IMG/VR virus record: IMGVR_UViG_3300037882_003529
Coordinates: 4,462 to 68,461 of that record
Reading direction: 5' to 3' (one strand)
Length of the DNA stretch: 64,000 nucleotides
Source of the DNA: a virus
Shown here: in pieces, positions 11,326 through 40,483 of the stretch
How positions within the stretch are numbered: the first letter of the stretch is position 1
Layout of the letters: each line of letters begins with the position of its first letter
Program-made: the position numbers and the translations under genes
Notes under the pieces: model-generated
What the model saw: only the letters and a program-made list of their open reading frames with translations
Told to the model about the DNA's origin: nothing
Databases searched by the model: none

Positions 11326-11814
11326 CTATCCTAAAATCTCAATTGACCAATGAAGTCTGCCTCTTCGAGCAGGAAAATTTTCCTCTGATTCAGGTTCTTT
11401 CATGTCTAATCCGTACCAAAATCTCCGCCAGGACGAATAGACTTTATGATCCCATTCCCAAATCATAGGACCATATTCAACATCAGCGCTAAACCTAAAA
11501 TGTTGAGCGATGGTAGGAACTGGGTCATTAAGCTTGTTGACGACGTGATTAATGCCAAGTTGATTAAGACTCTCAGAAATGGCCATTGGTCCATTTTTTA
11601 TTTTCTTGTCGACTGTGGTGGCAACTTGCGCTACAGATAATCCAGAAGCGGCAGAAAGAGCCCAACATAAGCTCTGGCCAAATGTTGTATATGATTGAAG
11701 TGAATCGTCGATGAAAGCGCCAGAAGTAAGTTTAAAATCTTTCTTGGCTTTTCTTATACGCTCATTTGTATATGATGATGGATCTAATTTGAGCGTTACT
11801 GAACGTAGAATCAT
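11326..11814 (-). CDS. hypothetical protein
   Basis: 162-aa ORF below an early-type promoter at ~11843-11871. Confidence 0.6.
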   Translation of the reverse strand: MILRSVTLKLDPSSYTNERIRKAKKDFKLTSGAFIDDSLQSYTTFGQSLCWALSAASGLSVAQVATTVDKKIKNGPMAISESLNQLGINHVVNKLNDPVPTIAQHFRFSADVEYGPMIWEWDHKVYSSWRRFWYGLDMKEPESEENFPARRGRLHWSIEILG

Positions 11815-11888
11815 AAGCTACCAAAGTTATACGGAGTAATAATTCTAACATATTTCAGAAATTAATTAAACAATAAGTAAAAAGTCAT

Positions 11889-11962
11889 TGGAAGCCTCTG
11901 AGAGAATCAAACTCCCTTATTTCGGGTCAGAGCCGAAGACATTATCAATATGTTAAGAGGCC
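11889..11962 (-). tRNA. tRNA-Gln(CUG)
   Basis: cloverleaf, TTCGG-CTCTGAC-CCGAA, encoded CCA. Confidence 0.85.
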
Positions 11963-11969
11963 AATCTTA

Positions 11970-12043
11970 TGGTACCCTCTGGCAGAATCGGACTGCCTTT
12001 ACCAACTTGTAAGGATGGAGTTTTACCATTAAACTAAGAGGGC
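11970..12043 (-). tRNA. tRNA-Val(UAC)
   Basis: loop CTTACAA, GCCCTCT/AGAGGGT acceptor, CCA. Confidence 0.85.
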
Positions 12044-12049
12044 ACAAGA

Positions 12050-12142
12050 TTGAAGAGGAAAAAACAAATTCAGCGTCCGCTATGAATGGTTTCCCATTCT
12101 TAGGAATTGAACCTAAGTAACTGAATTTTACGCCATCTTCAA
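12050..12142 (-). ncRNA. YrlA/Y-RNA-like element 1 (T-arm plus capped acceptor-like hairpin)
   Basis: scaffold GAAGATGGCGTAAAATTCAGTTACTT..CTGAATTT..TTCCTCTTC enclosing TTAGGTTCAATTCCTAA and GAATGG-GAAA-CCATTC. Confidence 0.65.
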
Positions 12143-12145
12143 AAG

Positions 12146-12222
12146 TGGTACCGATAGCGAGACTCGAACTCGCAAAATTTAGCGTCTAAAGCTAACACGT
12201 CTTCCAATTCCATCATACCGGC
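12146..12222 (-). tRNA. tRNA-Leu(UAG), short variable arm
   Basis: TTAGC-TTTAGAC-GCTAA, GTTCGAGTC T-loop, CCA. Confidence 0.9.
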
Positions 12223-12225
12223 ATA

Positions 12226-12639
12226 TTATAAAGAAAAATGAATTAAAAAATCACCATTTTCTAGTTCGTCAGCATAACCTCGTTTTACAAGCCCAATCAT
12301 TTGTTTTTTTCCTTCTTTAGAAAAAACTTTTGATGTTCTAATAGGACCCACGTCTAAAACCGCTCGACGCATTAATTCAAATGCTAATCCTCTTCCTCGA
12401 AAATTTTCATCGACATCAATTTGCATGCCGACCCAAATATCTGATATTTTTTTAAGAGATAATTTACCAACAGGAATTTCATAGTCTGTTTTGATTGAAT
12501 TTTTCTTATAGAAATCATAAGCAATATACTCTTTTCTATCATTTCTATCGACTTCTAATTCAATCTTAATTTTAGAAAATTTCGAAGTTACAATCTCTAC
12601 AAATAATTTAAAGAATTTAAAATTATTTACCTCTTTCAT
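12226..12639 (-). CDS. GNAT-fold acetyltransferase-like protein inserted in the tRNA cluster
   Basis: IDVDENFRGRGLAFELM acetyl-CoA-binding motif A, FSKEG. Confidence 0.7.
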   Translation of the reverse strand: MKEVNNFKFFKLFVEIVTSKFSKIKIELEVDRNDRKEYIAYDFYKKNSIKTDYEIPVGKLSLKKISDIWVGMQIDVDENFRGRGLAFELMRRAVLDVGPIRTSKVFSKEGKKQMIGLVKRGYADELENGDFLIHFSL

Positions 12640-12689
12640 ATTAAATTTTATATGGAAAAATTATTTATGAGAATCGAACTCGCAAAAAT

Positions 12690-12829
12690 TGGTTACAATA
12701 CTTCGTGTGTATTTGGTAGCAATTCAAATACATTTTTCACGTATTTCTCGTGACTTCGACCATACACGTACGCCGATTGATTATGCTAGCCTTAAAGAGG
12801 ATAAACAACACCAAAAGGAAGTATTGCAA
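12690..12829 (-). ncRNA. unassigned ~140-nt structured RNA ending in CCA
   Basis: terminal stem TTGCAATACTTC/GAAGTATTGTAA then CCA; internal hairpins TCACG/CGTGA and TGTATTTG/CAAATACA. Confidence 0.55.
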
Positions 12830-12831
12830 AA

Positions 12832-12902
12832 TGGCAGACTAGGTGAGAATCGAACTCACTCTCGGTGGGTCAAAGCCACGTCGGATCCCTGATCTCTAGC
12901 CA
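12832..12902 (-). tRNA. tRNA-Gln(UUG) with shrunken D-arm
   Basis: GTGG-CTTTGAC-CCAC, GTGAG-TTCGATT-CTCAC, GCCA end. Confidence 0.75.
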
Positions 12903-12912
12903 ATTGAAAAGG

Positions 12913-13048
12913 TTTCAACGGAAAATTGAATTCAGTATTTTTCGGGTTTTGCCATTAAACTACGATTCCATAGAATGCGGAATCGGGTGGAGTCGAACCA
13001 CCATCACGTCATTAACAGTGAAGGAACTGAAATCTGCACCAGTTGAAA
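12913..13048 (-). ncRNA. YrlA/Y-RNA-like element 2 with circularly permuted tRNA domain
   Basis: scaffold TTCAACTGGTGCAGATTTCAGTTCCTTC..CTGAATTCAATTTTCCGTTGAA; inside, T-arm GTGGTTCGACTCCAC, then CGATTCC/GGAATCG closed stem, then D-arm GTTTAATGGCAAAAC. Confidence 0.8.
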
Positions 13049-13051
13049 AAG

Positions 13052-13125
13052 TGGAGGGTCCAGAAGGAGTTGAACCTTCGTTCGCAGTTTAACAGACTGC
13101 CGTTCTTCCGTTGAACTATAGACCC
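13052..13125 (-). tRNA. tRNA-Asn(GUU)
   Basis: GCAGT-CTGTTAA-ACTGC, CCA. Confidence 0.9.
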
Positions 13126-13132
13126 TAAAATA

Positions 13133-13207
13133 TGGTAGCGGAGGAGGGAATCGAACCCACAACCTTGAGCTTATGAGACTCACAATCTTCCATTGATCTA
13201 CTCCGCT
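13133..13207 (-). tRNA. tRNA-Met(CAU)
   Basis: TGAGT-CTCATAA-GCTCA, AGCGGAG/CTCCGCT acceptor, ACCA. Confidence 0.85.
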
Positions 13208-13212
13208 GCTTT

Positions 13213-13246
13213 TGGACCGCTTAGCAATATCATTGCTTATAAGCGA
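13213..13246 (-). ncRNA. 34-nt minihelix-like RNA ending in CCA
   Basis: TCGCTTA-TAA-GCAAT-GAT-ATTGC-TAAGCGG-T-CCA. Confidence 0.4.
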
Positions 13247-13251
13247 TAATA

Positions 13252-13327
13252 TGGTACACTATGAGAGAATCGAACTCTCTTCTTCAGAGTGAAAATCTGA
13301 GATCCTTAACCATTAGACGAATAGTGC
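13252..13327 (-). tRNA. tRNA-Glu(UUC)
   Basis: TCAGA-TTTTCAC-TCTGA, GCACTAT/ATAGTGT, ACCA. Confidence 0.9.
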
Positions 13328-13328
13328 A

Positions 13329-13979
13329 TTAATTTCTACCTCTAGTGAAACCAATAGGAATCTCACTGTCGGCCTTTATTCTTGTATTCATAGAACCATT
13401 AGTTATCCAAATTTGCTTATATTTACGCTTATAAGGAATTACTGGTCTATTCATAAGAGATTTTGATATCTTTCGAGAATTTTCCACTCGGTTAAGAGTA
13501 GCAGTTCCTAAAAGGGAACATCTTTTACTACAATAAATTAATTTATTTTTTCTTTTGGAGTCAGAAGAAAATTCACTACTACAATTACAGCACACATAAT
13601 TATATTTTGGCTTATATCCATCATATAATTCATAAATGTTTTTGTATTGGTAGTTACTTTTGACCCAGTCAAATTCGACTTTTAAGTCTTGTTGATACAA
13701 TACTTTGGTTTTATATCCGGCTTGAAGAGCAGCATTAATTTTGATATCCACTAAAGGTGTGTAATACCCCTTTATTTCAATCAAACAACCAAATTCATCA
13801 ACAAAATCCGGAAAATACTTACTGTTTAGAGTTTTAATGAATCCTTCGAATCGTTTCACGAATAAATTATGATCTAATCTAAAAAGAACATAAACTAACT
13901 CATAAGTCGACGCACAATAAATTCCTCTAAAATATCCACTTTTGGATCTACCTGATCCTTTTCTGATTCCGCCTCTCAT
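13329..13979 (-). mobile_element. probable free-standing homing endonuclease (PD-(D/E)XK nuclease, Cys-rich and WITNG-type C-terminal motifs)
   Basis: YFPDF..IEIKG catalytic motif, CCNC..YCSKRC, WITNG..PIGFTRGR; sits inside tRNA cluster. Confidence 0.65.
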
Positions 13980-13984
13980 TAATT

Positions 13985-14014
13985 ATCACGTCCTAGCCAC
14001 TAGACTACAGGTGC
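13985..14014 (-). pseudogene. 5'-half remnant of a tRNA (Glu-like)
   Basis: GCACCTG-TA-GTCT-AGTGGCT-AGGAC-GTGA then breaks off into the endonuclease start. Confidence 0.7.
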
Positions 14015-14023
14015 AAAAATGAA

Positions 14024-14322
14024 TAAGTTGATATAGTGTGCTGTTACGCTTAAGTCTCTACGGATCTTGCATTGCATTAGCAGAACGGGTTTGTACACAC
14101 CCTATGGCCCTTCGTCTTTTACCACTGCTTTAAGTAACAGGCTTCGCCCAAATACGTTCAACCTCAAGTTTTGAATTCTGAAACCCGAATAGTCGATAAC
14201 AATGCAAACTGTACTTGTCCTTCTCCGTCGAACACCTTCCGAAAGGTTGACTAATCTCTCGGTTCGTCGATTTGACACTCATTAAAGATGGCTGCTTCTA
14301 AGCCTACTTCTACATCAACTTA
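14024..14322 (-). ncRNA. ~300-nt structured RNA containing a split 23S rRNA H43-H44 (L11-binding/GTPase-associated centre) mimic
   Basis: 13-bp terminal stem TAAGTTGATGTAG/CTATATCAACTTA; 5' AAGTAGGCTTAGAAGCAGCCATCTTTAATGA and 3' AAGCGTAACAGCACA match 23S nt ~1057-1103. Confidence 0.8.
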
Positions 14323-14325
14323 AAT

Positions 14326-14401
14326 TGGGGTAACTAGAGAGAATCGAACTCTCGACAATGCATTCACAGTGCATTCATTTACCATTAATTGTATAGCTAC
14401 C
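14326..14401 (-). tRNA. tRNA-His(GUG)
   Basis: ATGCA-CTGTGAA-TGCAT, G-1:C73, CCA. Confidence 0.9.
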
Positions 14402-14409
14402 ATTGAATT

Positions 14410-14496
14410 TGGCGGCGACTTGAGTATTCGAAACCCTGGCCTTGCGACCCGAATCGCTTTCCAAGCGATCTCAGTACCCTGACTGATTAAGACGCC
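14410..14496 (-). tRNA. tRNA-Ser(GGA), 8/4 cloverleaf
   Basis: acceptor GGCGTCTT/AAGTCGCC, 4-bp T-stem GGGT/ACTC, long variable arm, G73, CCA. Confidence 0.8.
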
Positions 14497-14502
14497 GATA
14501 AT

Positions 14503-14578
14503 TGGTATAGAGTATCAGAATCGAACTGATTTCCATGGCTCTTCAGGCCAGTGCAATAACCATACTTGCTCACTCTAT
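14503..14578 (-). tRNA. tRNA-Phe(GAA)
   Basis: TGGC-CTGAAGA-GCCA, ATAGAGT/ACTCTAT, ACCA. Confidence 0.85.
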
Positions 14579-14584
14579 ATTATT

Positions 14585-14675
14585 TGGCGGGTGATTAAAT
14601 AGTCGAAATCCAACCGCTTTCACGATCAATCTGCTTTCAAGGCAGTTCCGGCATCGCCTGTCCGGTTAATCACCC
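14585..14675 (-). tRNA. tRNA-Ser(UGA), 8/4 cloverleaf
   Basis: acceptor GGGTGATT/AATCACCC, 4-bp T-stem GGAT/ATTT, loop CTTGAAA, long variable arm, GCCA. Confidence 0.8.
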
Positions 14676-14684
14676 ATTTAAAAC

Positions 14685-14759
14685 TGGAGCTCCGACAAGG
14701 ACTCGAACCCTGCTCGATGGAGTACAAAACCATTGCCTCGCCATCTAGGCTTCCGGAGC
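14685..14759 (-). tRNA. tRNA-Thr(UGU)
   Basis: loop TTTGTAC, CAGGGTTCGAGTCCTTG, CCA. Confidence 0.85.
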
Positions 14760-14766
14760 AAAAAAG

Positions 14767-14823
14767 AACTTTGAAATCTACTAGCAGAGGCATTGTAATT
14801 TCTTCATAGATGATTTCAAAGTT
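14767..14823 (-). ncRNA. unassigned hairpin RNA
   Basis: 12-bp inverted repeat AACTTTGAAATC/GATTTCAAAGTT fills the spacer between RNA genes. Confidence 0.4.
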
Positions 14824-14826
14824 TAA

Positions 14827-15002
14827 AGGAGAACCATGCAGTTTCGACCTGCAACATCCAATTAAGGAGAGCGGAATCTAAGGCAAATAGCGCCAACTCC
14901 GGGTACACTTAATTGGTCGGGTAGTCAAAGCAACTACTAATAGGGTGCGAATAAAAACTTACCCGAGAAACATCCGCTTGCTATTTTCGTTCTTTATGGT
15001 TC
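14827..15002 (-). ncRNA. ~175-nt RNA with tRNA-like acceptor and T-arm and a possible pseudoknot
   Basis: GAACCAT/ATGGTTC acceptor, GCAG-GTCGAAA-CTGC, helices TCGGGTA/TACCCGA and CCAATTAAG/CTTAATTGG, loop GCTATTT complementary to upstream AAATAGC. Confidence 0.65.
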
Positions 15003-15010
15003 ATTGAAAC

Positions 15011-15086
15011 TGGAGCCCTATAGAGGAATTGAACCCCTGACCTGTTGGTTCGAAGCCAACTGCTCTATCCACTGAGCTAATAAGGC
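15011..15086 (-). tRNA. tRNA-Arg(UCG)
   Basis: GTTGG-CTTCGAA-CCAAC, A20, CCA. Confidence 0.9.
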
Positions 15087-15092
15087 AATATT

Positions 15093-15241
15093 AGGTTTCC
15101 ATCCGCAGAGGCGATAGATTTCTAATCTACCGGAACCTTCACTTTTCTACAATAATTAAATCCTACGTAATTAATGTAAAACGCAAATAAACTGTCCAAA
15201 ATTGCTATCCATTGGATTCAATAAATCTGACGGCATGGAAA
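15093..15241 (-). ncRNA. unassigned ~150-nt multi-hairpin RNA
   Basis: terminal pairing TTTCCATGCCGTCAGA/TCTGCGGATGGAAA plus three internal hairpins. Confidence 0.5.
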
Positions 15242-15243
15242 TA

Positions 15244-15317
15244 TGGTCCTCAGAGAAAGAATCGAACTTTCGTCAATGGATTATCGGTCCATCGTTTTAC
15301 CATTAAACTATCCGAGG
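15244..15317 (-). tRNA. tRNA-Ile(GAU)
   Basis: ATGGA-CCGATAA-TCCAT (C33), ACCA. Confidence 0.85.
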
Positions 15318-15321
15318 AAAC

Positions 15322-15397
15322 TGGAGTCTTCGCTTAGGGACCCTAATCCCTGATTCTGATATCAAGAATCTGCTCTTTCCTGGGGAGCTACGAAGAC
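15322..15397 (-). ncRNA. non-canonical tRNA-like RNA (aberrant anticodon and T arms)
   Basis: GTCTTCG/CGAAGAC-T-CCA, D-arm GCTC/GAGC, GATTCT/AGAATC arm, no TTC T-loop. Confidence 0.6.
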
Positions 15398-15402
15398 ATA
15401 AT

Positions 15403-15477
15403 TGGCAGGTCATAGAGGATTCGAACCTCTGCCGCAAGGTTTTGGAGACCTGCATGCTGCCGTTACACTAACGACCT
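15403..15477 (-). tRNA. tRNA-Trp(CCA)
   Basis: AGGT-CTCCAAA-ACCT, GCCA. Confidence 0.9.
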
Positions 15478-15483
15478 ATTAAT

Positions 15484-15557
15484 TGGAGCAGATAATCGGA
15501 ATCAAACCGATTTCGCCTGGTTGGAAGCCAGGGGCACAATCAATATACCATACCTGC
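15484..15557 (-). tRNA. tRNA-Gly(UCC)
   Basis: CCTGG-CTTCCAA-CCAGG, TCCA. Confidence 0.9.
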
Positions 15558-15564
15558 ATAAAAT

Positions 15565-15639
15565 TGGCGTTCTCTGATGGAATCTAACCACCGACCTCGC
15601 AACCGCAGTTACGTGCTCTATCCACTGAGCTAAGAGAAC
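15565..15639 (-). tRNA. tRNA-Arg(GCG)-like with 6-nt anticodon loop
   Basis: CGTAA-CTGCGG-TTGCG, A20 D-loop, GCCA. Confidence 0.65.
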
Positions 15640-15643
15640 AAAA

Positions 15644-15718
15644 TGGTGGGACCGCAGAGAATCGAACTCTGATCGACCGGTTAAAAGCCGGCTGCTCTAG
15701 CCGTTGAGCTACGATCCC
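15644..15718 (-). tRNA. tRNA-Lys(UUU)
   Basis: GCCGG-CTTTTAA-CCGGT, ACCA. Confidence 0.95.
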
Positions 15719-15723
15719 GAAAT

Positions 15724-15799
15724 TGGTACCGATACCGGGACTCGAACCCGGAAAATTCAGATTTTAAGTCTGACACGTATACCTTTCCATCATACCGGC
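15724..15799 (-). tRNA. tRNA-Leu(UAA), short variable arm
   Basis: TCAGA-CTTAAAA-TCTGA, ACCA. Confidence 0.9.
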
Positions 15800-15895
15800 A
15801 TAAAAGGGCTGGGGAGCTCGTGATTTACCACTTTCTTCTAGATTGATCATTTCTAGGAGCCTTTTAATAAGGCGCAACCCATTGAGATCATTAAT

Positions 15896-15979
15896 TGGTG
15901 GGTACCCAGAGAATCGAACTCTGTCGGCCGAAGCATCGCATTTACAGTGCGACCCATGTCCATAATGGTCTATGTACCC
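15896..15979 (-). tRNA. tRNA-Tyr(GUA)
   Basis: TCGCA-CTGTAAA-TGCGA, long variable arm, ACCA. Confidence 0.85.
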
Positions 15980-15985
15980 CCAAAT

Positions 15986-16102
15986 TGGCGCTTCTCGATG
16001 GATTCTAACCACCGTTCTCCTATTCAGAGTTTAAGCTCTACAAGGCGCATTTGCTGACACTAATAAGGCGACCGCCAGTCAGACTACAAAATGCTAAGAA
16101 GC
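15986..16102 (-). ncRNA. 117-nt tRNA-like RNA with greatly extended D-arm
   Basis: GCTTCTT/GAGAAGC-G-CCA, GGTGG-TTAGAAT-CCATC, D-arm GCATTT..CTGAC..GTCAG..AAATGC. Confidence 0.65.
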
Positions 16103-16107
16103 AAAAA

Positions 16108-16244
16108 TGGTGTCTCTCTAAGGATTTAAACCTTAGATTTCTTCCTTTCGGGGAAGCGTCGTTAATCAAACACTGCGGCTAGCACCGCTGCTTGAGAACT
16201 TGCTAGAATTCTCATATTTGATTTTAATCATTGGACCAAGAGAC
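16108..16244 (-). ncRNA. 137-nt tRNA-like RNA with a kissing-loop domain inserted in the D-loop
   Basis: GTCTCTT/GAGAGAC-A-CCA, TAAGG-TTTAAAT-CCTTA, inserted hairpin loops CTAGCA and TGCTAG are complementary. Confidence 0.75.
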
Positions 16245-16248
16245 AAAT

Positions 16249-16338
16249 TGGCGGAATCTAAGAGATTCGAACTCTTACTCCCTTTCGAGAGGCTGGTTTA
16301 GCAAACCAGTGCGACTGCACCGTCTTCGCGGAGATTCC
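16249..16338 (-). tRNA. tRNA-Ser(GCU)
   Basis: CTGGT-TTGCTAA-ACCAG, long variable arm, GCCA. Confidence 0.9.
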
Positions 16339-16344
16339 ATAAAT

Positions 16345-16419
16345 TGGAGGCTAGGGTCGGAATCAAACCGACTTGAAATGGATTTGCAATCCACTGCATA
16401 ATCATTCTGCCACCTAGCC
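16345..16419 (-). tRNA. tRNA-Cys(GCA)
   Basis: GTGGA-TTGCAAA-TCCAT, U73, CCA. Confidence 0.9.
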
Positions 16420-16428
16420 AAAAGAAAA

Positions 16429-16517
16429 TCTCGAAAGAATAAATGAATTCAAAGGACAGTCCAATAGGCGGACCGTATCAGTCTCAATGAAGTATTTGAA
16501 CTCTACACTATTCGAGA
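16429..16517 (-). ncRNA. YrlA/Y-RNA-like element 3 (no tRNA domain)
   Basis: TCTCGAATAGTGTAGAGTTCAAATACTTC..TTTGAATTCATTTATTCTTTCGAGA. Confidence 0.6.
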
Positions 16518-16521
16518 AAAC

Positions 16522-16608
16522 TGGCGCTCTTTTGAGGACTCGAACCTCAATTGTGATTATTTTTAACCTGCGCATCAGAATAATCATGCTTGCCGTAAGC
16601 TAAAGAGC
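16522..16608 (-). ncRNA. tRNA-like RNA with 8-bp anticodon stem and 17-nt loop
   Basis: GCTCTTT/AAAGAGC-G-CCA, D-arm GCTT/AAGC, TGATTATT-N17-AATAATCA, TGAGGTTCGAGTCCTCA. Confidence 0.7.
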
Positions 16609-16618
16609 AATAAAAATG

Positions 16619-16686
16619 TAAGGAAGGAAAAAATGAACTCAGAGTTTTTCTCACATTGAAGTATCTGAATTCTACGCCATTCCTTA
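16619..16686 (-). ncRNA. YrlA/Y-RNA-like element 4 (minimal)
   Basis: TAAGGAATGGCGTAGAATTCAGATACTTC..TCTGAGTTCATTTTTTCCTTCCTTA. Confidence 0.6.
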
Positions 16687-16690
16687 AAAC

Positions 16691-16765
16691 TGGTGGACCA
16701 GAGGGGAATCGAACCCCTAACATCAACTTGCAAGGCTGACATTTTCCCAATTAAACTACAGGCCC
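16691..16765 (-). tRNA. tRNA-Ala(UGC)
   Basis: TCAGC-CTTGCAA-GTTGA, G3:U70, ACCA. Confidence 0.9.
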
Positions 16766-16772
16766 ATTAAAA

Positions 16773-16849
16773 TGGTCGACTAGATGAGATTTGAACTCAT
16801 AACCCCTCGGTCCCAAACCGAGTGCTCTACCAAGTTGAGCTTCTAATCG
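16773..16849 (-). tRNA. tRNA-Pro(UGG)
   Basis: CTCGG-TTTGGGA-CCGAG, ACCA. Confidence 0.9.
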
Positions 16850-16869
16850 TTAATTTCTTCTATCAAATA

Positions 16870-16944
16870 TGGCGACTCGTACGAGATTCGAACTCGTGTA
16901 TCCTAATAGACAGTCAGGAATCGTTACCACTAGATCAACGAGCC
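16870..16944 (-). tRNA. tRNA-Asp(GUC)
   Basis: CCTGA-CTGTCTA-TTAGG, GCCA. Confidence 0.9.
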
Positions 16945-16952
16945 AAGTAAGG

Positions 16953-17022
16953 TCTTAGAGGAAAAATTGATTTCGGATTGGCACTTTTCAAAAGAAGTAA
17001 CCGAAATCTTCACCATCTAAGA
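16953..17022 (-). ncRNA. YrlA/Y-RNA-like element 5 (minimal)
   Basis: TCTTAGATGGTGAAGATTTCGGTTACTTC..CCGAAATCAATTTTTCCTCTAAGA. Confidence 0.6.
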
Positions 17023-17028
17023 AAAAGG

Positions 17029-17162
17029 TTTCAGCAGAAAAACGAACTCAGAGTTTGGCGACGGACTCGAACCTTTAATCTCCTAGTTTCCTAGGTGTTT
17101 TAACCAGTTAAACTACGCTTCCGAATGGTGGAAGAAGTATCTGAACTCTGCACTAGCTGAAA
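17029..17162 (-). ncRNA. YrlA/Y-RNA-like element 6 with non-permuted tRNA domain
   Basis: scaffold TTTCAGCTAGTGCAGAGTTCAGATACTTC..TCTGAGTTCGTTTTTCTGCTGAAA; inside, D-arm, CCTAG-GAAA-CTAGG, then GGTTCGAGTCC. Confidence 0.7.
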
Positions 17163-17170
17163 TAAAAAGT

Positions 17171-17306
17171 TGAAGAGGAATTATGCGAATCCAAAATCTT
17201 GGAGCCCTGGTTCTACCGTTAAACTACAAGTCTATTCAGACTCGGAGGGATTCGAACCACTCATTGAGGGCTTGGAATGAAGTATTTGAATTCTACGCCA
17301 TCTTCA
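17171..17306 (-). ncRNA. YrlA/Y-RNA-like element 7 with circularly permuted tRNA domain
   Basis: GCCCT..T-arm GGTTCGAATCC, CGAGTCT-GAAT-AGACTTG closed acceptor, D-arm GTTTAACGGTAGAAC..AGGGC inside the conserved scaffold. Confidence 0.8.
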
Positions 17307-17492
17307 CCCAAATACACTCGAAAATTTATTTGGGTGAAGATTCCCTAAAGGGAATCTTCAAATGACTTTTTACAAATTGTGAAGGAACTTTGCAACTCCA
17401 CTGATTCTATCGAATCTAAGGAGAGTGCATTTCGCTTCTCTCCGTGGTCTTATGTACTCATCTGCTTATGTTTTAGCAGATTTGATGGAGTG

Positions 17493-17523
17493 ATTCTATA
17501 CTGACTCCATGAGTTTGTAAACA
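17493..17523 (-). promoter_or_regulatory. early-type promoter heading the RNA island
   Basis: minus strand GTTTACA..TATAGAAT. Confidence 0.65.
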
Positions 17524-25300: not shown

Positions 25301-25921
25301 TTACATGTAGTTGTCGACAAGTTCTTGTTCAGTCATGATTCTAAATTCTACTTTTTGGCGCCAAAAATCAGCTGCTCTAATAACTGCTTGATGATCAGTT
25401 TCGCCACCTTTCACATCACAAATTACAAAAGGATTTCCATTCTCTATTCCATAGACAGTTCTTGTAGGAGAGCTCAAGAATAATGGATCGCAAATCTCAA
25501 GAGTTTTATTCGTATTATAAAGATAGAGAGTCGTATTAATTTTACTAAAAGCTTTCAGGATTTCTTTACGAACTTCATGATATCGAAGTTTTCCTAGACC
25601 GCAACCAAGAGCTGGAATTGCAATACTTTGAATTCCCATAAACTCTACTTTGTCTCTAAGAGAAACTAAACCTTTTTTGATCCATATAATGCTCGAAGAC
25701 GATTCCCAATGATTCTTTGTAGGAAAATTAAAAATCAACTTTGAATCAAAGAAAGAATGGACAACACCCATATACAGTTGATTTTCTAAACAGAATTTTC
25801 GATAGCTATGATAATTTTTAGGAAATCGTTCTTTGAATTCTTTTGCTAATCCTGCTCCTGAGACTCCTTTGCAATTCACAGGATTTACTAAAGCTTCTGC
25901 TGGTGATTCAAATATGCTCAT
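25301..25921 (-). CDS. macrodomain ADP-ribosylglycohydrolase (DarG/TARG1-like)
   Basis: ALVNPVNCKGVSGAGLA, NFPTKNHW, SIAIPALGCGLG. Confidence 0.9.
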   Translation of the reverse strand: MSIFESPAEALVNPVNCKGVSGAGLAKEFKERFPKNYHSYRKFCLENQLYMGVVHSFFDSKLIFNFPTKNHWESSSSIIWIKKGLVSLRDKVEFMGIQSIAIPALGCGLGKLRYHEVRKEILKAFSKINTTLYLYNTNKTLEICDPLFLSSPTRTVYGIENGNPFVICDVKGGETDHQAVIRAADFWRQKVEFRIMTEQELVDNYM

Positions 25922-29084: not shown

Positions 29085-30317
29085 TTATATTGATGAAACT
29101 GTTGATCGTCTTTCGGCTACCGATTGACGAGTTTTTCCAGTCGAAATATATCGAATAGGAATTGATATTTTATCTCCTGGAAAGTTAAAATCTTGGGAAT
29201 CAGCCCATGTTACTGCTAAAACAGGATCCCAATATGTTTGTTTTTGGGACATGGTCGTAAAAAGGTCACTGCAAATTCGAATTCGCATATCACCTAGATC
29301 AAGTTTGCCTCGCCTTTGATCTCCTTGCCATTGATTTGGTTTATTTGTGTCATCATCGAACTTAACCCAATCTTGGCTCTGGCTTGAATACATTTGACCT
29401 GTTCCGTGACGAGTCAAATAAGTTCTAGTCACATAGATCGGCTGAATTTCGACCGATTTAGTAAGATTTCCTTTAAAAATCTCACCAGAAAGATCATTAA
29501 TTGCTTCGGAAGCTGACTCTATTCCAGGATCAGAAGGAGTTAAATGCGGACTCCAAGTGGGCTGACCGATTAATTTTTCAGAAAGGCCAAGTCCTTGTGC
29601 ACCTTCAACGATGATTTGAAAATGTTCGCCTAATAATACCTTTTGATGCTCAGAAATTGAATTGTCGTTAAATTCTTTTACTTTGTATAGTGATTCAGTA
29701 AAAAGTGACAATAATTCAGATGAACAATATAAAGAAACATCAAATAATCCTTTTGACTTCTCGTTTAGATTTTCTAAACCATAGTTTCGATGTTTAGCTA
29801 TACGAGTAGGATTAATGTATTTTAATCGAAGTGCTTCTTCTTTGAATGATTTAGATCTTTTGAAACATTCAAAAATTCCGTGGCCACAAGATCCATGCCG
29901 GCCACTACCTCGATTTGTTTCATGGATTTGATTTGTTGCCATATCCCAAGGCGTAACAATTCGACAAGATGGTGATATCATAATAATTGGAGTCCATCCA
30001 AAAAAATCCTTGAACTTTTCCAATTCTTTGAGAAGAGCTAAAGGATTTAGATAGAAGTTAGAACCCAAATATCCAATTACATTACGGCCAACACCACATC
30101 CAGAAGGAATTGAATTAAAGACGAAAGATCTACCATCTGGATAATTCACTGTATGTCCAGCTTGAGCGCCTCCATTATGACGAATACATATCACATAATG
30201 GAGATTTCTGTTCGTTTCGACATCATATTGAAGCGCTTTGTTAGTAAGATAATCGGTCATTAAACCTTTACCTTCGTCGCCGAAATTTGCTCCAATCACA
30301 ACTGGAATGGTTATCAT
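29085..30317 (-). CDS. adenylosuccinate synthetase-like protein (divergent PurA clade)
   Basis: GANFGDEGKG, RHNGGAQAGHT, HGSCGHGI, EGAQGLGL, VTRTYLTRHG. Confidence 0.85.
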   Translation of the reverse strand: MITIPVVIGANFGDEGKGLMTDYLTNKALQYDVETNRNLHYVICIRHNGGAQAGHTVNYPDGRSFVFNSIPSGCGVGRNVIGYLGSNFYLNPLALLKELEKFKDFFGWTPIIMISPSCRIVTPWDMATNQIHETNRGSGRHGSCGHGIFECFKRSKSFKEEALRLKYINPTRIAKHRNYGLENLNEKSKGLFDVSLYCSSELLSLFTESLYKVKEFNDNSISEHQKVLLGEHFQIIVEGAQGLGLSEKLIGQPTWSPHLTPSDPGIESASEAINDLSGEIFKGNLTKSVEIQPIYVTRTYLTRHGTGQMYSSQSQDWVKFDDDTNKPNQWQGDQRRGKLDLGDMRIRICSDLFTTMSQKQTYWDPVLAVTWADSQDFNFPGDKISIPIRYISTGKTRQSVAERRSTVSSI

Positions 30318-38676: not shown

Positions 38677-38751
38677 TGGTAGGCCTGCTAGGAATCGAAC
38701 CTAGACCGATGGATTATGAGTCCACTGCTCTTACCAATGAGCTACAGGCCC
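38677..38751 (-). tRNA. tRNA-Ile2(CAU) (lysidine type) or Met
   Basis: GTGGA-CTCATAA-TCCAT, C4/C5 acceptor pairs, ACCA. Confidence 0.85.
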
Positions 38752-39144: not shown

Positions 39145-40101
39145 TTAACCTTTGAAATTTAGAGAAATGACTTTGAATGACCAACTTTGATCTTTAGCCC
39201 TAAACACAACACCTTCAGCTTGTTTTCCATTTTTATATCTTACATTGTCTGCGATATCTCTCAAATCATCAACAGATTCTGGTTTTGGAACATAAACAAA
39301 ATCAACAAGCGGAAGAGAAGTTTCTTCAGAGAAACGAAGCAATTCACTCAAAGGTTGTTTTTCCCAAACATTTCTGCGACCTTCAGCTTTCTTTAGAAGA
39401 GTAAAAATTTTGATCGATTTTTCACGTAATCCAGATTGATTATCATGGATTCCAGGACCAATGATTTCATATTGAATACCAAATCCATCAGGAATCAACT
39501 TCTCTAAATTAAACTTTTTAGCCAATTGAGTATAAAAATTATCAGCATCTGGCTTTACGGTTAATGTTCGAGAACAAATAGTCAGCTTTCCGTCTTCTTT
39601 GAACGCAGTAGAAGAAGTTCCATCTTCTTTCACTGTGACATAATATGGTTCTTCTAATTTCTCGACCCATCTTGGAAACATTTGATAGTTGAGTTCAGAA
39701 GTTTTCGAAATGAAATGAGGAAATCCTGCGATGAAATCATCGGTATTTTCGATCGATTTCTCGTATTTTGCTACTCGATAAAATCCAGTAAGATCTTCAC
39801 CGATAAACTTTAATGACTCCTCAATAGATTCCAAAGGAATAATCAAGCATTCAGAAGGAGACCCTTTAAATCGACAGAGTTTAATCCGATAAGAGTGCTT
39901 TTCCATGAAAGCAAAACGCTGAATTGCAGGCAAAATCGCATCTGGAAGAAAAACGGCAACATCATCAAGAAGATTAATCGTTTTTTGAATAACTCCGGTC
40001 CAAATTCCTGCTTCGCCACAATCAACTGTCGCTTCTTGAATAAAATCAGCGCCTATGATCGATCTAATCGAAACAACCTTTCCTTTTGTAGCTAAAATCA
40101 T
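39145..40101 (-). CDS. RNA ligase (DRB0094/Rnl2-like)
   Basis: N-terminal OB-like domain, motif I KEDGTS, QYEIIGPGI, EGVVF, SFKVIS. Confidence 0.85.
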   Translation of the reverse strand: MILATKGKVVSIRSIIGADFIQEATVDCGEAGIWTGVIQKTINLLDDVAVFLPDAILPAIQRFAFMEKHSYRIKLCRFKGSPSECLIIPLESIEESLKFIGEDLTGFYRVAKYEKSIENTDDFIAGFPHFISKTSELNYQMFPRWVEKLEEPYYVTVKEDGTSSTAFKEDGKLTICSRTLTVKPDADNFYTQLAKKFNLEKLIPDGFGIQYEIIGPGIHDNQSGLREKSIKIFTLLKKAEGRRNVWEKQPLSELLRFSEETSLPLVDFVYVPKPESVDDLRDIADNVRYKNGKQAEGVVFRAKDQSWSFKVISLNFKG

Positions 40102-40316
40102 TTTTGGATCTCTGGTTTAATGCATGTAAAGCGGTTTAAGGTATATTCAACCCATTGGCTGCCAGATTGAACACATTTAATGGCAGCTTGTTCAGCTGAT
40201 TTTTCATTATCTTCTACTGCGTTTAGGAGCATAAGAAACATCAATAGAACACAGAAAGTTAAAACAAGAAAAAGTACTATTTTGACAATCGGAAAATTTC
40301 CCACATTATACTCCAT
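40098..40316 (-). CDS. small membrane protein
   Basis: TM plus two Cys. Confidence 0.55.
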   Translation of the reverse strand: MEYNVGNFPIVKIVLFLVLTFCVLLMFLMLLNAVEDNEKSAEQAAIKCVQSGSQWVEYTLNRFTCIKPEIQK

Positions 40317-40399
40317 GGTCGTCGTTTAGGAATCGAACCTAATCTTTAAGAGAAAAATTACCCAACCCATTCTCAAATATGCCCATACATCAAACGACG
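40316..40399 (-). ncRNA. non-canonical tRNA-like element
   Basis: CGTCGTT/AACGACG-A-CCA, TAGG-TTCGATT-CCTA, tiny D-arm ATG/CAT, extended GAGAA/TTCTC arm. Confidence 0.55.
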
Positions 40400-40483
40400 A
40401 ATACAAGAAACAACCAAATTATTAGGAGAAATATGCCAATCAAAATTGCTGGCATAAAAACCCTAATCAAAGCGTAAAATAAA

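What the first reader, a model, noticed from the sequence alone, without database searches (positions are those of the whole stretch)
16108..16244. tRNA chassis with a kissing-loop domain inserted into the D-loop
Seen: within the D-loop, helix AATCAAATA/TGTTTGATT opens into two hairpins (TGAGAATT/AGTTCTCA and GCGG/CCGC). Their 6-nt loops CTAGCA and TGCTAG are exact complements. The anticodon arm is CTTCC-CCGAAA-GGAAG and the RNA ends ACCA. Such complete pairing is unlikely by chance. Inference: a compact tertiary or self-multimerising RNA of unknown function.
Basis: partly seen in the sequence, partly recalled or inferred. Interest (0 to 1): 0.7.

Follow-up and report, generated by a model that had tools for sequence, protein, structure and literature searches.

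The report
Phage tRNA-like RNA with complementary loops
Inside a phage's transfer-RNA gene cluster lies a 137-base gene for an RNA that keeps the two ends of a tRNA but cannot read codons and carries an extra branched domain whose two loops could pair with each other; it resembles the long-unexplained small RNAs of phage T4, and whether the loop pairing matters could not be tested.

Summary

It lies in a 23-tRNA cluster of a distant T4-like phage contig. It sits 4 nt after tRNA-Ser and 5 nt before a second tRNA-like gene, and like its neighbours it ends in an encoded CCA.

It is not a decoding tRNA. ARAGORN and Rfam do not call it, and the stem-loop in the anticodon position has a 6-nt loop.

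The "D-loop" placement is uncertain. The closing GUC/GAC helix has 2% ensemble probability, and a class-II-like reading fits better.

Exact complementarity of the two 6-nt loops has P of about 0.003-0.004 given this RNA's four loops. However, 26% of shuffled windows hold such a hairpin pair somewhere.

No homologue was found in any collection I could search, so loop covariation is untestable here.

The closest known analogue is T4 rnaC, which shares layout and context but is not detectably homologous.

Verdict: a real tRNA-like stable-RNA gene and a new variant of a known, unexplained kind. The kissing loops remain unproven.

The parts
16108..16244 (-). RNA-1: the 137-nt tRNA-like RNA gene (the finding)
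   Evidence: MFE -43.0, z -5.06. All helices verified. Not called by ARAGORN or Rfam.
16238..16244 (-). Acceptor stem, 5' strand (nt 1-7, GUCUCUU)
   Evidence: Pairs with nt 127-133. The first 5 pairs have about 1.0 ensemble probability; the last two have 0.2 and 0.0.
16108..16118 (-). Acceptor stem 3' strand GAGAGAC (nt 127-133), then discriminator A and encoded CCA (nt 134-137)
16224..16239 (-). Alternative small hairpin, nt 6-21 (UUGGUC-CAAU-GAUUAA), a possible miniature D arm
   Evidence: Pair probabilities 0.6-0.95. Present in the MFE structure.
16164..16223 (-). Three-way-junction domain, nt 22-81: a 9-bp helix carrying hairpins 1 and 2
   Evidence: z -3.32, 1 of 200 shuffles. Pair probabilities 0.73-0.93 for the 9-bp helix.
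16193..16214 (-). Hairpin 1: 8-bp stem; loop CUAGCA at 16201-16206
   Evidence: Loop unpaired probability 0.99-1.0.
16175..16188 (-). Hairpin 2: 4-bp G/C stem; loop UGCUAG at 16179-16184. GCUAGC, formed with the first stem C, is a palindrome.
   Evidence: Stem probability 1.0. The outer two loop bases tend to form a fifth U-G pair (unpaired probability 0.03).
16141..16156 (-).
   Evidence: Pair probabilities 0.96-0.99.
16119..16135 (-). T arm UAAGG-UUUAAAU-CCUUA (U where tRNAs have C56)
   Evidence: Pair probability 1.0.
15986..16102 (-). RNA-2: a second tRNA-like gene, 117 nt, starting 5 nt downstream. It has a 7-bp acceptor stem, T arm GGUGG-UUAGAAU-CCAUC and GCCA.
   Evidence: Overall fold is not better than shuffles (z -0.66).
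16249..16338 (-). tRNA-Ser(GCU), 4 nt upstream of RNA-1
15896..15979 (-). tRNA-Tyr(GUA), 6 nt downstream of RNA-2

Best explanation
RNA-1 is a tRNA-derived, non-decoding stable RNA gene of a distant T4-like phage.

Shown: it lies on the tRNA strand inside a tightly packed block of tRNA genes. It has an intact 7-bp acceptor stem, a 5-bp T stem with a T-like loop, a U at position -1 and an encoded ACCA.

Inferred: it is transcribed within the polycistronic tRNA precursor, cut at G1 by host RNase P and trimmed to its CCA end like its neighbours.

Shown: it has no 7-nt anticodon loop and no GG in the D region, so it cannot work as an adaptor on the ribosome.

Inferred, and the weakest step: it acts as a tRNA mimic. 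The acceptor/T minihelix with CCA would engage a protein that recognises tRNA ends or the tRNA elbow, such as a host tRNA-targeting defence or toxin or a processing or modifying enzyme. The 60-nt three-way-junction domain would supply a specific handle.

If the two complementary 6-nt loops are used, I judge pairing between two molecules more likely than pairing within one. In that case hairpin 1 of one copy pairs with hairpin 2 of another. The reason is geometric: the hairpins (8 and 4 bp) are joined by only 4 and 2 nt, which is short for closing a 6-bp loop-loop helix in cis.

Rough odds: real processed tRNA-like RNA 0.8; tRNA-mimic role 0.4; loop complementarity functional in any form 0.4.
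For: - Position and spacing. There are 23 tRNA genes at 11889-16944, all on the minus strand. RNA-1 starts 4 nt after tRNA-Ser and ends 5 nt before RNA-2, which ends 6 nt before tRNA-Tyr. Neighbouring tRNAs in this block are 4-7 nt apart (coordinates).
- Encoded CCA. My scan with a strict T-arm/acceptor/CCA rule recovered 19 cluster tRNAs (plus tRNA-Met at 38677-38751 outside the cluster), RNA-1 and RNA-2, all ending NCCA.
- Structure. 41 of 41 standard pairs. z -5.06 for the whole RNA and z -3.32 for the branched domain.
- Strand. Three G-U pairs, and the minus strand folds better: -43.0 against -32.7.
- Not a tRNA. Not called by ARAGORN or by Rfam at gathering or at E up to 10.
- Not a repeated or mobile segment. 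Each hairpin occurs once in the window, even allowing 2-3 mismatches.
- Precedent. T4 rnaC is a stable RNA in the T4 tRNA cluster with an interrupted acceptor-like stem, a long arm, a hairpin with a 6-nt loop and a T arm. 18 of its 47 consensus pairs show compensatory change in 5 sequences. In Karamvirus phages it lies between tRNA-Trp and tRNA-Gly with spacers of a few nt.
- Context of a conflict over tRNA. The window encodes an RNA ligase beside further tRNA genes. An HNH endonuclease ORF lies inside the cluster, as segB does in T4.
- Loop complementarity. P 0.0032-0.0041 given this RNA's four loops; the loop-loop duplex is -6.4 kcal/mol.
Against: - No homologue was found anywhere I could search, so there is no conservation or covariation evidence for any helix or for the loops.
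- There are no expression data.
- Odd tRNA-like genes are common in large-phage tRNA clusters and are often annotated as pseudo or 'OTHER'. RNA-1 could therefore be one more decaying copy.
- RNA-2 next door does not fold better than shuffles (z -0.66).
- The strict complementary-loop motif turns up by chance somewhere in 26% of shuffled windows. A second instance lies inside a coding region at 49395-49421.
- The decoy role is inferred only from analogy. The function of the closest analogue, T4 rnaC, is itself unknown (passages in PMC3014915 and PMC9697503).
- The geometric argument against pairing in cis is my inference from recalled structural rules, not a computation.
Confidence: 0.5

Rival explanations
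1. Decaying tRNA gene. A former tRNA, possibly of the long-variable-arm class, lost its anticodon loop to an insertion or rearrangement. It persists without function, and the loop complementarity is chance.
For: At least three more abnormal tRNA-like genes lie in the same cluster (15565-15639, 15986-16102, 16522-16608). Similar 'tRNA-OTHER' or pseudo genes occur in Pseudomonas phage Milchi and Stenotrophomonas phage DLP_6, and expanded tRNA-likes occur in IMG/VR relatives. No homologue shows conservation. The strict loop motif arises by chance in 26% of shuffled windows.
Against: A decaying gene should accumulate mismatches, yet 41 of 41 pairs are standard, including a 60-nt extra domain with z -3.32. 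G-U pairs and the energy difference favour the transcribed strand. Acceptor stem, T arm, CCA and spacing are all intact. The inserted segment is not a repeat.
Confidence: 0.2
2. Self-multimerising RNA. The two loops pair between identical molecules, hand in hand as in phi29 pRNA, giving dimers or rings of a tRNA-like RNA.
For: The topology matches the pRNA multimerisation domain: a helix, a three-way junction and two loops that are complementary within one molecule. The linkers of 0, 4 and 2 nt look too short for closure in cis (inference). The CUAG core and GCUAGC are palindromic, so homotypic pairing is also possible (sequence). [quoted passage not shown]
Against: No experimental or comparative support. 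No Rfam pRNA match at E up to 10. T4-like packaging motors are not known to use an RNA (recalled). The complementarity may be chance. In the ensemble the two outer bases of loop 2 tend to pair with each other.
Confidence: 0.15
3. Intramolecular kissing. The two loops pair within one molecule to lock the three-way junction into a compact, rigid domain.
For: Exact 6-nt complementarity, duplex -6.4 kcal/mol. Both hairpins are stable and loop 1 is fully exposed. Junction strand lengths of 0, 4 and 2 nt are of the type in which the third helix can lean towards the stacked hairpin (recalled rule for three-way junctions).
Against: The stems are unequal (8 and 4 bp) and the linkers are 4 and 2 nt. A fully paired 6-bp loop-loop helix stacked between the stems would have to bend back sharply (inference). 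Known cis loop-loop contacts in small junctions use fewer pairs or longer arms (recalled). No covariation test was possible.
Confidence: 0.12
4. Conformational switch. CUAGCA and UGCUAG form an ordinary helix in an alternative secondary structure that competes with the two hairpins.
For: A fold forced to contain this helix is still stable at -37.8 kcal/mol.
Against: It is 5.2 kcal/mol worse than the MFE, and it destroys an 8-bp and a 4-bp G/C hairpin that have about 1.0 probability. No ligand-binding or regulatory context is apparent. It lies within a tRNA block, not in a leader.
Confidence: 0.05
5. Intron-containing tRNA. The extra domain is removed to give a working tRNA.
For: Other phages hold tRNA genes with inserts.
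Against: With the domain taken out, the remaining stem-loop still has a 6-nt loop CCGAAA without U33. If the 9-bp helix is read as the anticodon stem instead, no 7-nt loop with U33 can be made from its inner bases (read directly from the sequence). At 60 nt the domain is far below group I intron size (recalled). Rfam finds no intron or ribozyme.
Confidence: 0.02

Closest known systems
Phage T4 rnaC (species 1 RNA), with rnaD the small stable RNAs of the T4 tRNA cluster
   Same: Both are encoded on the tRNA strand inside the tRNA cluster of a T4-type phage, a few nt from tRNA genes. Sizes are similar: 139 against 137 nt. The order of parts is the same: terminal acceptor-like stem, long structured arm of about 60 nt, short hairpin with a 6-nt loop, T arm. 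A second small RNA gene lies directly beside each. A homing-endonuclease gene lies in each cluster. Function is unknown in both.
   Different: No detectable homology. My model of RNA-1 does not find rnaC in T4. My rnaC model gives RNA-1 only 3.3 bits, over the T arm. The long arm of rnaC is a single hairpin, not a three-way junction, and has no complementary loop pair. The rnaC acceptor-like stem is interrupted and its CCA is not encoded. Its invariant loop is CGUCAA; here the loop is CCGAAA.
phi29-family packaging RNA (pRNA)
   Same: A helix opens at a three-way junction into elements bearing two loops that are complementary within one molecule. In pRNA these pair between molecules (PMC4201828: abstract and passages).
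   Different: No Rfam pRNA match. pRNA has no tRNA-like part. It belongs to small phages that package with a terminal protein. Its tested kissing interactions have 2-5 potential pairs, whereas this RNA offers 6. Multimerisation here is untested.
tRNA (Rfam RF00005)
   Same: 7-bp acceptor stem, 5-bp T stem with G53-C61 and a 7-nt UU..A loop, discriminator plus CCA, and a 5-nt stretch before the T stem.
   Different: The loop is 6 nt instead of 7 and has no U33. There is no G18G19, and U stands in place of C56. An extra 60-nt branched domain is present. It is not called by ARAGORN or by Rfam's tRNA model.
tmRNA tRNA-like domain and bacterial Y-RNA (YrlA) tRNA-like domain
   Same: Both are non-decoding RNAs that keep an acceptor/T-arm mimic joined to other structure (recalled).
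   Different: ARAGORN finds no tmRNA. Rfam gives no tmRNA or Y-RNA match at E up to 10. At 137 nt there is no tag reading frame or pseudoknots. In YrlA the RNA ends lie in the Ro-binding stem, not in the acceptor stem (recalled).
Other expanded tRNA-like genes in large-phage tRNA clusters (uncharacterised)
   Same: L015:8043-8150 and L008:12073-12176 are cloverleaves with a hairpin inserted in the D loop. The first also has a capped, non-anticodon loop.
   Different: Their inserts are single hairpins of about 13-35 nt. They have no three-way junction and no complementary loops, and their scores against the RNA-1 model are no higher than those of ordinary tRNAs (26 bits).

Membership tests
tRNA (RF00005 / ARAGORN) | Called by tRNA-specific models | tested here: not met
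   Absent from ARAGORN's 25 calls. Absent from Rfam at gathering score and at E up to 10.
tRNA (RF00005 / ARAGORN) | 7-bp acceptor stem stacked on a 5-bp T stem with a 7-nt T loop, and a 3' NCCA | tested here: met
   The T loop is UUUAAAU, with U at position 56.
tRNA (RF00005 / ARAGORN) | 7-nt anticodon loop with U33 | tested here: not met
   The loop is CCGAAA, 6 nt.
tRNA (RF00005 / ARAGORN) | D arm with G18G19 for the elbow | tested here: not met
   No GG in the unpaired D-region stretches CAAUGAUUAA and AAC. The 3-bp closing helix has 0.02 probability.
T4 rnaC family | Sequence and structure similarity to a covariance model of rnaC (5 sequences, 47 pairs) | tested here: not met
   Model R2 with filters off over 11500-17500 gave only a 3.3-bit local match to the T arm at 16119-16135. 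The best hit was tRNA-Cys at 28.6 bits.
T4 rnaC family | Gene within the phage tRNA cluster, on the same strand, a few nt from tRNA genes | tested here: met
T4 rnaC family | Layout: terminal stem, long arm, hairpin with 6-nt loop, T arm | tested here: met
   for RNA-1; for rnaC.
T4 rnaC family | Invariant hairpin loop CGUCAA | tested here: not met
   CGUCAA is identical in 5 of 5 rnaC sequences. RNA-1 has CCGAAA.
T4 rnaC family | Accumulates as a stable processed RNA in infection | not testable with these tools
   No sequencing run was listed for this DNA.
phi29 pRNA (Rfam pRNA family) | Match to the Rfam model | tested here: not met
   No pRNA match at E up to 10 in 15980-16700.
phi29 pRNA (Rfam pRNA family) | Three-way junction presenting two mutually complementary loops | tested here: met
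   (sequence level only).
phi29 pRNA (Rfam pRNA family) | Forms multimers by intermolecular loop-loop pairing | not testable with these tools
   Needs native gels, SEC-MALS or cryo-EM.
tmRNA | tRNA-like domain plus tag reading frame | tested here: not met
   ARAGORN reports no tmRNA in the window. No Rfam tmRNA match.

The most novel reading that the evidence does not exclude
RNA-1 is a natural self-associating tRNA mimic. It would then present several acceptor/T-arm ends at once, for example as a multivalent trap for a host tRNA-targeting defence protein. A 2014 paper states that phi29-family pRNA is the only natural RNA known to form a functional multimer by pairing of identical molecules (passage in PMC4201828). 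This would be a second case, built on a tRNA scaffold.
Probability: 0.12. Interest if true: 0.8.

Novelty: new variant of a known kind. Interest (0 to 1): 0.45.

Why it matters
Phage tRNA clusters are now seen as part of the conflict with host tRNA-cleaving defences (PMC10264068 and PMC11455837, seen only as search listings and abstract openings). The non-tRNA small RNAs in these clusters, known in T4 since the 1970s, still have no function (passages in PMC3014915 and PMC9697503).

This window shows that a very distant T4-type phage also carries two tRNA-like, non-decoding RNA genes in tandem in its cluster. They are not homologous to rnaC in any way I could detect, yet they have the same layout. 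This suggests that the layout is repeatedly selected: a tRNA-end mimic joined to a large extra arm and a hairpin with a 6-nt loop.

RNA-1 is a compact, perfectly paired example with a testable feature, the complementary loops. It could therefore serve as a tractable model for asking what this class of RNA does.

Tried and rejected
Searches for homologues, all negative:
- blastn (distant) of 15980-16260 against 50,697 phage records gave no match.
- The whole 5.2-kb cluster matched 216 records, each over no more than 3% of the query and only over tRNA genes.
- Exact or degenerate DNA patterns in IMG/VR: the 3' end (0 hits); the CCGAAA loop plus T loop plus CCA (14 loci); both loops plus the T loop (34 loci); stems fixed with loops free; the RNA-2 T arm.
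- The same kind of pattern in metagenome contigs and in genome contigs.
- Relatives fetched through neighbouring proteins. The SPFH protein alone found none. The SPFH alignment found 6 IMG/VR loci and 47 metagenome loci. Topoisomerase II found 3 loci.
- All of these, together with Milchi, DLP_6 and T4, were searched with the single-sequence model R1. The best non-self scores were 15-31.5 bits. Those whose alignments or coordinates I checked were ordinary tRNAs or tRNA-related, except L015:8043-8150 (an expanded tRNA-like gene, 26 bits), a 119-nt expanded tRNA-like stretch in Milchi (15.2 bits) and a 124-nt stretch with no T arm (16.7 bits).
- The nearest relatives by protein identity are only 41-57% identical, so the phage is isolated in the collections open to me. 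Records very near the window's own may be hidden by the tools.

Other steps:
- Sequencing runs: none was listed and no RNA holder was listed.
- Repeated or mobile-element origin of the insert: rejected, since each hairpin occurs once in the window.
- CTAG content: 86 observed against 143 expected in the window. This mild depletion supports no inference.
- Promoter and terminator scan of the cluster: no more sites than in shuffles. Hairpin 2 is flagged as terminator-like, but its tail is weak and it lies inside the structure.
- Known ribozyme, riboswitch, tmRNA, Y RNA or pRNA: no Rfam match. T4 rnaC and rnaD themselves have no Rfam family, so an Rfam blank says nothing about likeness to rnaC.
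- Intron reading: rejected from the sequence (see rival explanations).
No supplementary files were opened.
- No RNA 3-D modelling tool was available, so the cis-versus-trans argument is inference.

Literature: searches turned up no paper describing a phage tRNA-like RNA with kissing loops or a D-region three-way junction. This holds only for the held library and for those search terms.
Full report
WHAT IS THERE

The window is part of a 68,461-bp IMG/VR virus contig judged 38% complete. Its genes mark a distant T4-type phage:
- a gp43-like DNA polymerase, about 35-37% identical to Straboviridae and related phages;
- a two-subunit topoisomerase II, ribonucleotide reductase, ligase and helicase.

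The nearest cultured relatives by a neighbouring SPFH protein are Pseudomonas phages Milchi and Astolliot, at 39% identity, with the same order of topoisomerase followed by SPFH.

ARAGORN finds 25 tRNA genes in the window. 23 of them lie in one minus-strand cluster at 11889-16944. Rfam confirms 21 tRNAs in the window.

The finding lies on the minus strand between tRNA-Ser (16249-16338) and tRNA-Tyr (15896-15979).

CHECKING THE OBSERVATION

- acceptor stem GUCUCUU/GAGAGAC (7 bp);
- a 9-bp helix that opens into hairpin 1 (8 bp, loop CUAGCA) and hairpin 2 (GCGG/CCGC, loop UGCUAG);
- a 5-bp hairpin with loop CCGAAA;
- a T arm UAAGG-UUUAAAU-CCUUA;
- a 3' ACCA.

All 41 proposed pairs are standard, and three are G-U. 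The RNA folds to -43.0 kcal/mol against -26.3 +/- 3.3 for 200 dinucleotide shuffles (z -5.06, none as good). The 60-nt branched domain alone gives z -3.32 (1 of 200). The same DNA read on the other strand gives z -1.76, and the whole region gives -32.7 on that strand. The structure is therefore real and belongs to the tRNA strand.

WHERE THE EXTRA DOMAIN SITS

That needs a 3-bp GUC/GAC helix to close the D arm.

In the Boltzmann ensemble this helix has probability 0.02. Nt 6-21 instead form a small hairpin with probability 0.6-0.95. The acceptor stem shortens to 5 bp and the T stem lengthens to 7 bp, so the stacked length stays at 12 bp.

In this second reading the order is: acceptor stem, miniature D hairpin, long arm in the anticodon position carrying the junction, short hairpin in the variable-arm position, T arm. 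That is the plan of a long-variable-arm tRNA. The tRNA-Ser just upstream has a similar GAAA-capped variable arm.

Nearest-neighbour energies often mis-rank cloverleaves, so I leave both readings open. In either reading there is no 7-nt anticodon loop, no U33 and no GG for the elbow, and position 56 of the T loop is U. ARAGORN and Rfam do not call it a tRNA, even at E up to 10.

IS THE LOOP COMPLEMENTARITY MORE THAN CHANCE?

Given the four terminal loops of this RNA, the chance that any two hold a 6-nt Watson-Crick complement is:
- 0.0032 when loops are drawn from the strand's base composition;
- 0.0041 when the pooled loop letters are permuted.

Across the whole window the picture is weaker. 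Under strict rules (two hairpins of at least 4 bp, both loops exactly 6 nt and fully complementary, at most 10 nt apart), the real window has 3 hits at 2 loci. One is this element. The other is at 49395-49421, inside an ORF, and is seen on both strands. Shuffled windows average 0.31 hits, and 26% of 200 have at least one. Under loose rules such pairs are commonplace: 206 in the real window against 143 +/- 27 in shuffles.

The complementarity is therefore notable because it sits in an independently well-supported structured RNA. It is not proof on its own.

The CUAG core is palindromic, and GCUAGC (hairpin 2 loop plus the first stem C) is a 6-nt palindrome, so like-with-like pairing is also possible. 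CTAG is only mildly depleted in the window, 86 against 143 expected. A fold that pairs the two loops as an ordinary helix reaches -37.8, which is 5 kcal/mol worse than the MFE.

CONTEXT

A scan for a T arm, a perfect 7-bp acceptor stem and NCCA recovers 19 of the cluster's tRNAs and tRNA-Met at 38677-38751. It also finds two longer genes.
- RNA-1 is the finding, at 137 nt.
- RNA-2 is at 15986-16102, 117 nt, with acceptor GCUUCUU/GAGAAGC, T arm GGUGG-UUAGAAU-CCAUC and GCCA.

The spacers are 4 nt (tRNA-Ser to RNA-1), 5 nt (RNA-1 to RNA-2) and 6 nt (RNA-2 to tRNA-Tyr). These match the 4-7 nt between neighbouring tRNAs in this block. The base before G1 is U.

This packing, the intact ends and the encoded CCA are what one expects of genes matured with the tRNAs by RNase P and 3' trimming. 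The processing itself is inferred, not shown.

With acceptor stem and T arm constrained, RNA-2 also shows a long arm followed by a hairpin with a 6-nt loop, CUUAAA. Overall, though, it folds no better than shuffles (z -0.66).

Two further cluster genes are abnormal:
- 15565-15639 has a normal cloverleaf, but its anticodon arm is a 6-bp stem capped by UGCG;
- 16522-16608 has an 8-bp anticodon stem with a 17-nt loop.

An HNH endonuclease-like ORF lies inside the cluster. An RNA ligase lies beside another tRNA gene further on.

SEARCH FOR RELATIVES

Nothing similar was found. The searches were:
- blastn against phage genomes;
- five pattern scans of IMG/VR;
- one pattern scan each of metagenome contigs and genome contigs;
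- a covariance model built from the single sequence (R1), run over the window, T4, Milchi, DLP_6, 9 related IMG/VR records, 48 pattern-hit loci and 47 metagenome loci.

Self scores 175 bits. Everything else scores 31.5 bits or less. The hits I checked by alignment or coordinates are ordinary tRNAs or tRNA-related, apart from the expanded tRNA-like L015:8043-8150 (26 bits), a 119-nt expanded tRNA-like stretch in Milchi (15.2 bits) and a 124-nt stretch with no T arm (16.7 bits).

The closest proteins anywhere are 41-57% identical. No sequencing run was listed.

COMPARISON WITH T4 rnaC AND rnaD

In T4 the two small stable RNAs lie at the end of the tRNA cluster, next to tRNA-Arg and the homing-endonuclease gene segB. 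They have no Rfam family.

rnaC occurs in 740 of 50,697 phage records, most of them at least 95% identical. I aligned T4 rnaC with four diverged copies, from Karamvirus and Kanagawavirus phages and an Erwinia phage. This gives a consensus of 47 pairs, 18 of them with compensatory changes. The consensus consists of:
- an interrupted acceptor-like stem;
- a roughly 60-nt hairpin arm;
- a 10-bp hairpin whose stem covaries while its 6-nt loop CGUCAA is invariant;
- an invariant T arm.

In the Karamvirus copies the gene sits between tRNA-Trp and tRNA-Gly with spacers of a few nt.

RNA-1 has the same order of parts, the same size and the same kind of location. A covariance model of rnaC (R2) run without filters over the cluster gives RNA-1 only a 3.3-bit local match at the T arm; its best hit is tRNA-Cys at 28.6 bits. 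R1 does not find rnaC either.

RNA-1 therefore works on the same plan as rnaC but is not a demonstrable member of its family. Reviews and a 2022 transcriptome paper state that the roles of RNAC and RNAD are unknown and that they accumulate late in infection (passages in PMC3014915 and PMC9697503).

OTHER ANALOGUES

Expanded tRNA-like genes turn out to be frequent in large-phage clusters:
- Milchi has a 194-nt 'tRNA-OTHER' and others;
- L015:8043-8150 and L008:12073-12176 are cloverleaves with a hairpin inserted in the D loop.

None has a three-way junction with complementary loops.

The branched domain has the topology of the multimerisation domain of phi29 pRNA, whose loops pair between molecules (PMC4201828). 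There is no Rfam pRNA match.

HOW IT MOST LIKELY WORKS

I take RNA-1 to be a processed, stable, non-decoding tRNA mimic (about 0.8 that it is a real processed RNA).

The most economical role, given current views of phage tRNA clusters as counter-defence (papers seen only as listings) and the RNA ligase in the window, is binding or diverting a protein that recognises tRNA ends or the tRNA shape (about 0.4, inferred by analogy).

I give about 0.4 that the loop complementarity is used at all. If it is, pairing in trans seems likelier than in cis, because 8-bp and 4-bp hairpins joined by 4-nt and 2-nt linkers leave little slack for a stacked 6-bp loop-loop helix. This is my inference from recalled structural rules, not a computation.

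The main rival is a decaying tRNA copy (0.2). The flawless pairing of a 60-nt extra domain and the intact ends argue against it.

VERDICT

- The tRNA-chassis reading is supported.
- The D-loop placement and the kissing interaction remain open.
- The element is a new variant of the rnaC kind of phage tRNA-cluster RNA.
- It is of moderate interest now, and of high interest if the self-association reading proves true.

Noticed in passing
window 15986-16102 (-): A second tRNA-like, non-tRNA gene (117 nt) lies 5 nt downstream of the finding. It has a perfect 7-bp acceptor stem, T arm GGUGG-UUAGAAU-CCAUC and an encoded GCCA. With those arms constrained it shows a long arm and a hairpin with 6-nt loop CUUAAA. 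Its overall fold is not better than shuffles (z -0.66).
   Followed up: partly
window 15565-15639 (-): ARAGORN calls this 'tRNA-???'. It is a normal cloverleaf (Rfam tRNA 50.2 bits), but its anticodon arm is 16 nt: either a 6-bp stem capped by UGCG or 5 bp with a 6-nt loop. Its T loop is UUAGAUU, and the T arm is nearly identical to that of the 117-nt RNA.
   Followed up: partly
window 16522-16608 (-): A tRNA-like gene (Rfam tRNA 27.1 bits, below gathering score) with an 8-bp anticodon stem, a 17-nt loop and an encoded GCCA.
   Followed up: partly
window 16420-16521 (-): A 102-nt spacer inside the tRNA block. It has a long-range stem (UCUCGAA.../...UUCGAGA) and a terminator-like hairpin at 16456-16476. 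It may be another small RNA or an internal terminator.
   Followed up: no
window 13329-13979 (-): A 216-aa ORF inside the tRNA cluster with weak HNH endonuclease matches (PHROG E 4e-4). This parallels segB in the T4 tRNA cluster and the several homing or HNH endonuclease genes in Milchi's cluster.
   Followed up: partly
window 29085-30317 (-): An adenylosuccinate-synthetase family protein. The best PHROG is named '2-aminooxy adenylosuccinate synthetase' (E 4.5e-48), and Pfam Adenylsucc_synt matches at 2e-32. It could be a PurZ-type enzyme for a modified adenine in the DNA. I did not look for the companion genes.
   Followed up: no
window 25301-25921 (-): A Macro-domain protein encoded between the two topoisomerase II subunit genes.
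   Followed up: no
window 57348-58625 (-): A myo-inositol-1-phosphate synthase-like gene, 53% identical to that of Caulobacter phage Cr30 and 46-47% identical to those of Stenotrophomonas phages.
   Followed up: no
window 49395-49421 (both strands): The only other place in the window with two adjacent hairpins whose 6-nt loops (UUCCAU/AUGGAA) are fully complementary. It lies inside the ORF at 48946-49965, so it serves as an example of the chance background.
   Followed up: partly
window 39145-40400 (-): An RNA ligase gene (Pfam RNA_ligase) flanked by tRNA-Met (38677-38751) and a poor 'tRNA-His(aug)' call at 40317-40400 that looks like a degenerate tRNA-like hairpin.
   Followed up: no
L015:8043-8150 (-); L008:12073-12176 (+); L109:9655-9848 (-): Unrelated large phages carry tRNA-like genes with inserts. 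Two are cloverleaves with a hairpin inserted in the D loop, and one of these has its anticodon arm capped by a tetraloop. Pseudomonas phage Milchi has a 194-nt 'tRNA-OTHER' with about 110 nt inserted after the anticodon-stem region. Expanded tRNA-like genes seem a recurrent and little-described feature of phage tRNA clusters.
   Followed up: partly
L013:1909-2047 (-) and alignment A3: T4 rnaC has a covariation-supported structure: 18 of 47 pairs show compensatory change in 5 sequences. The 6-nt loop CGUCAA and the T arm are invariant. The rnaC model's best hit in this window is tRNA-Cys (28.6 bits), with the rnaC hairpin aligned to the anticodon arm. This hints that rnaC itself descends from a tRNA.
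   Followed up: partly
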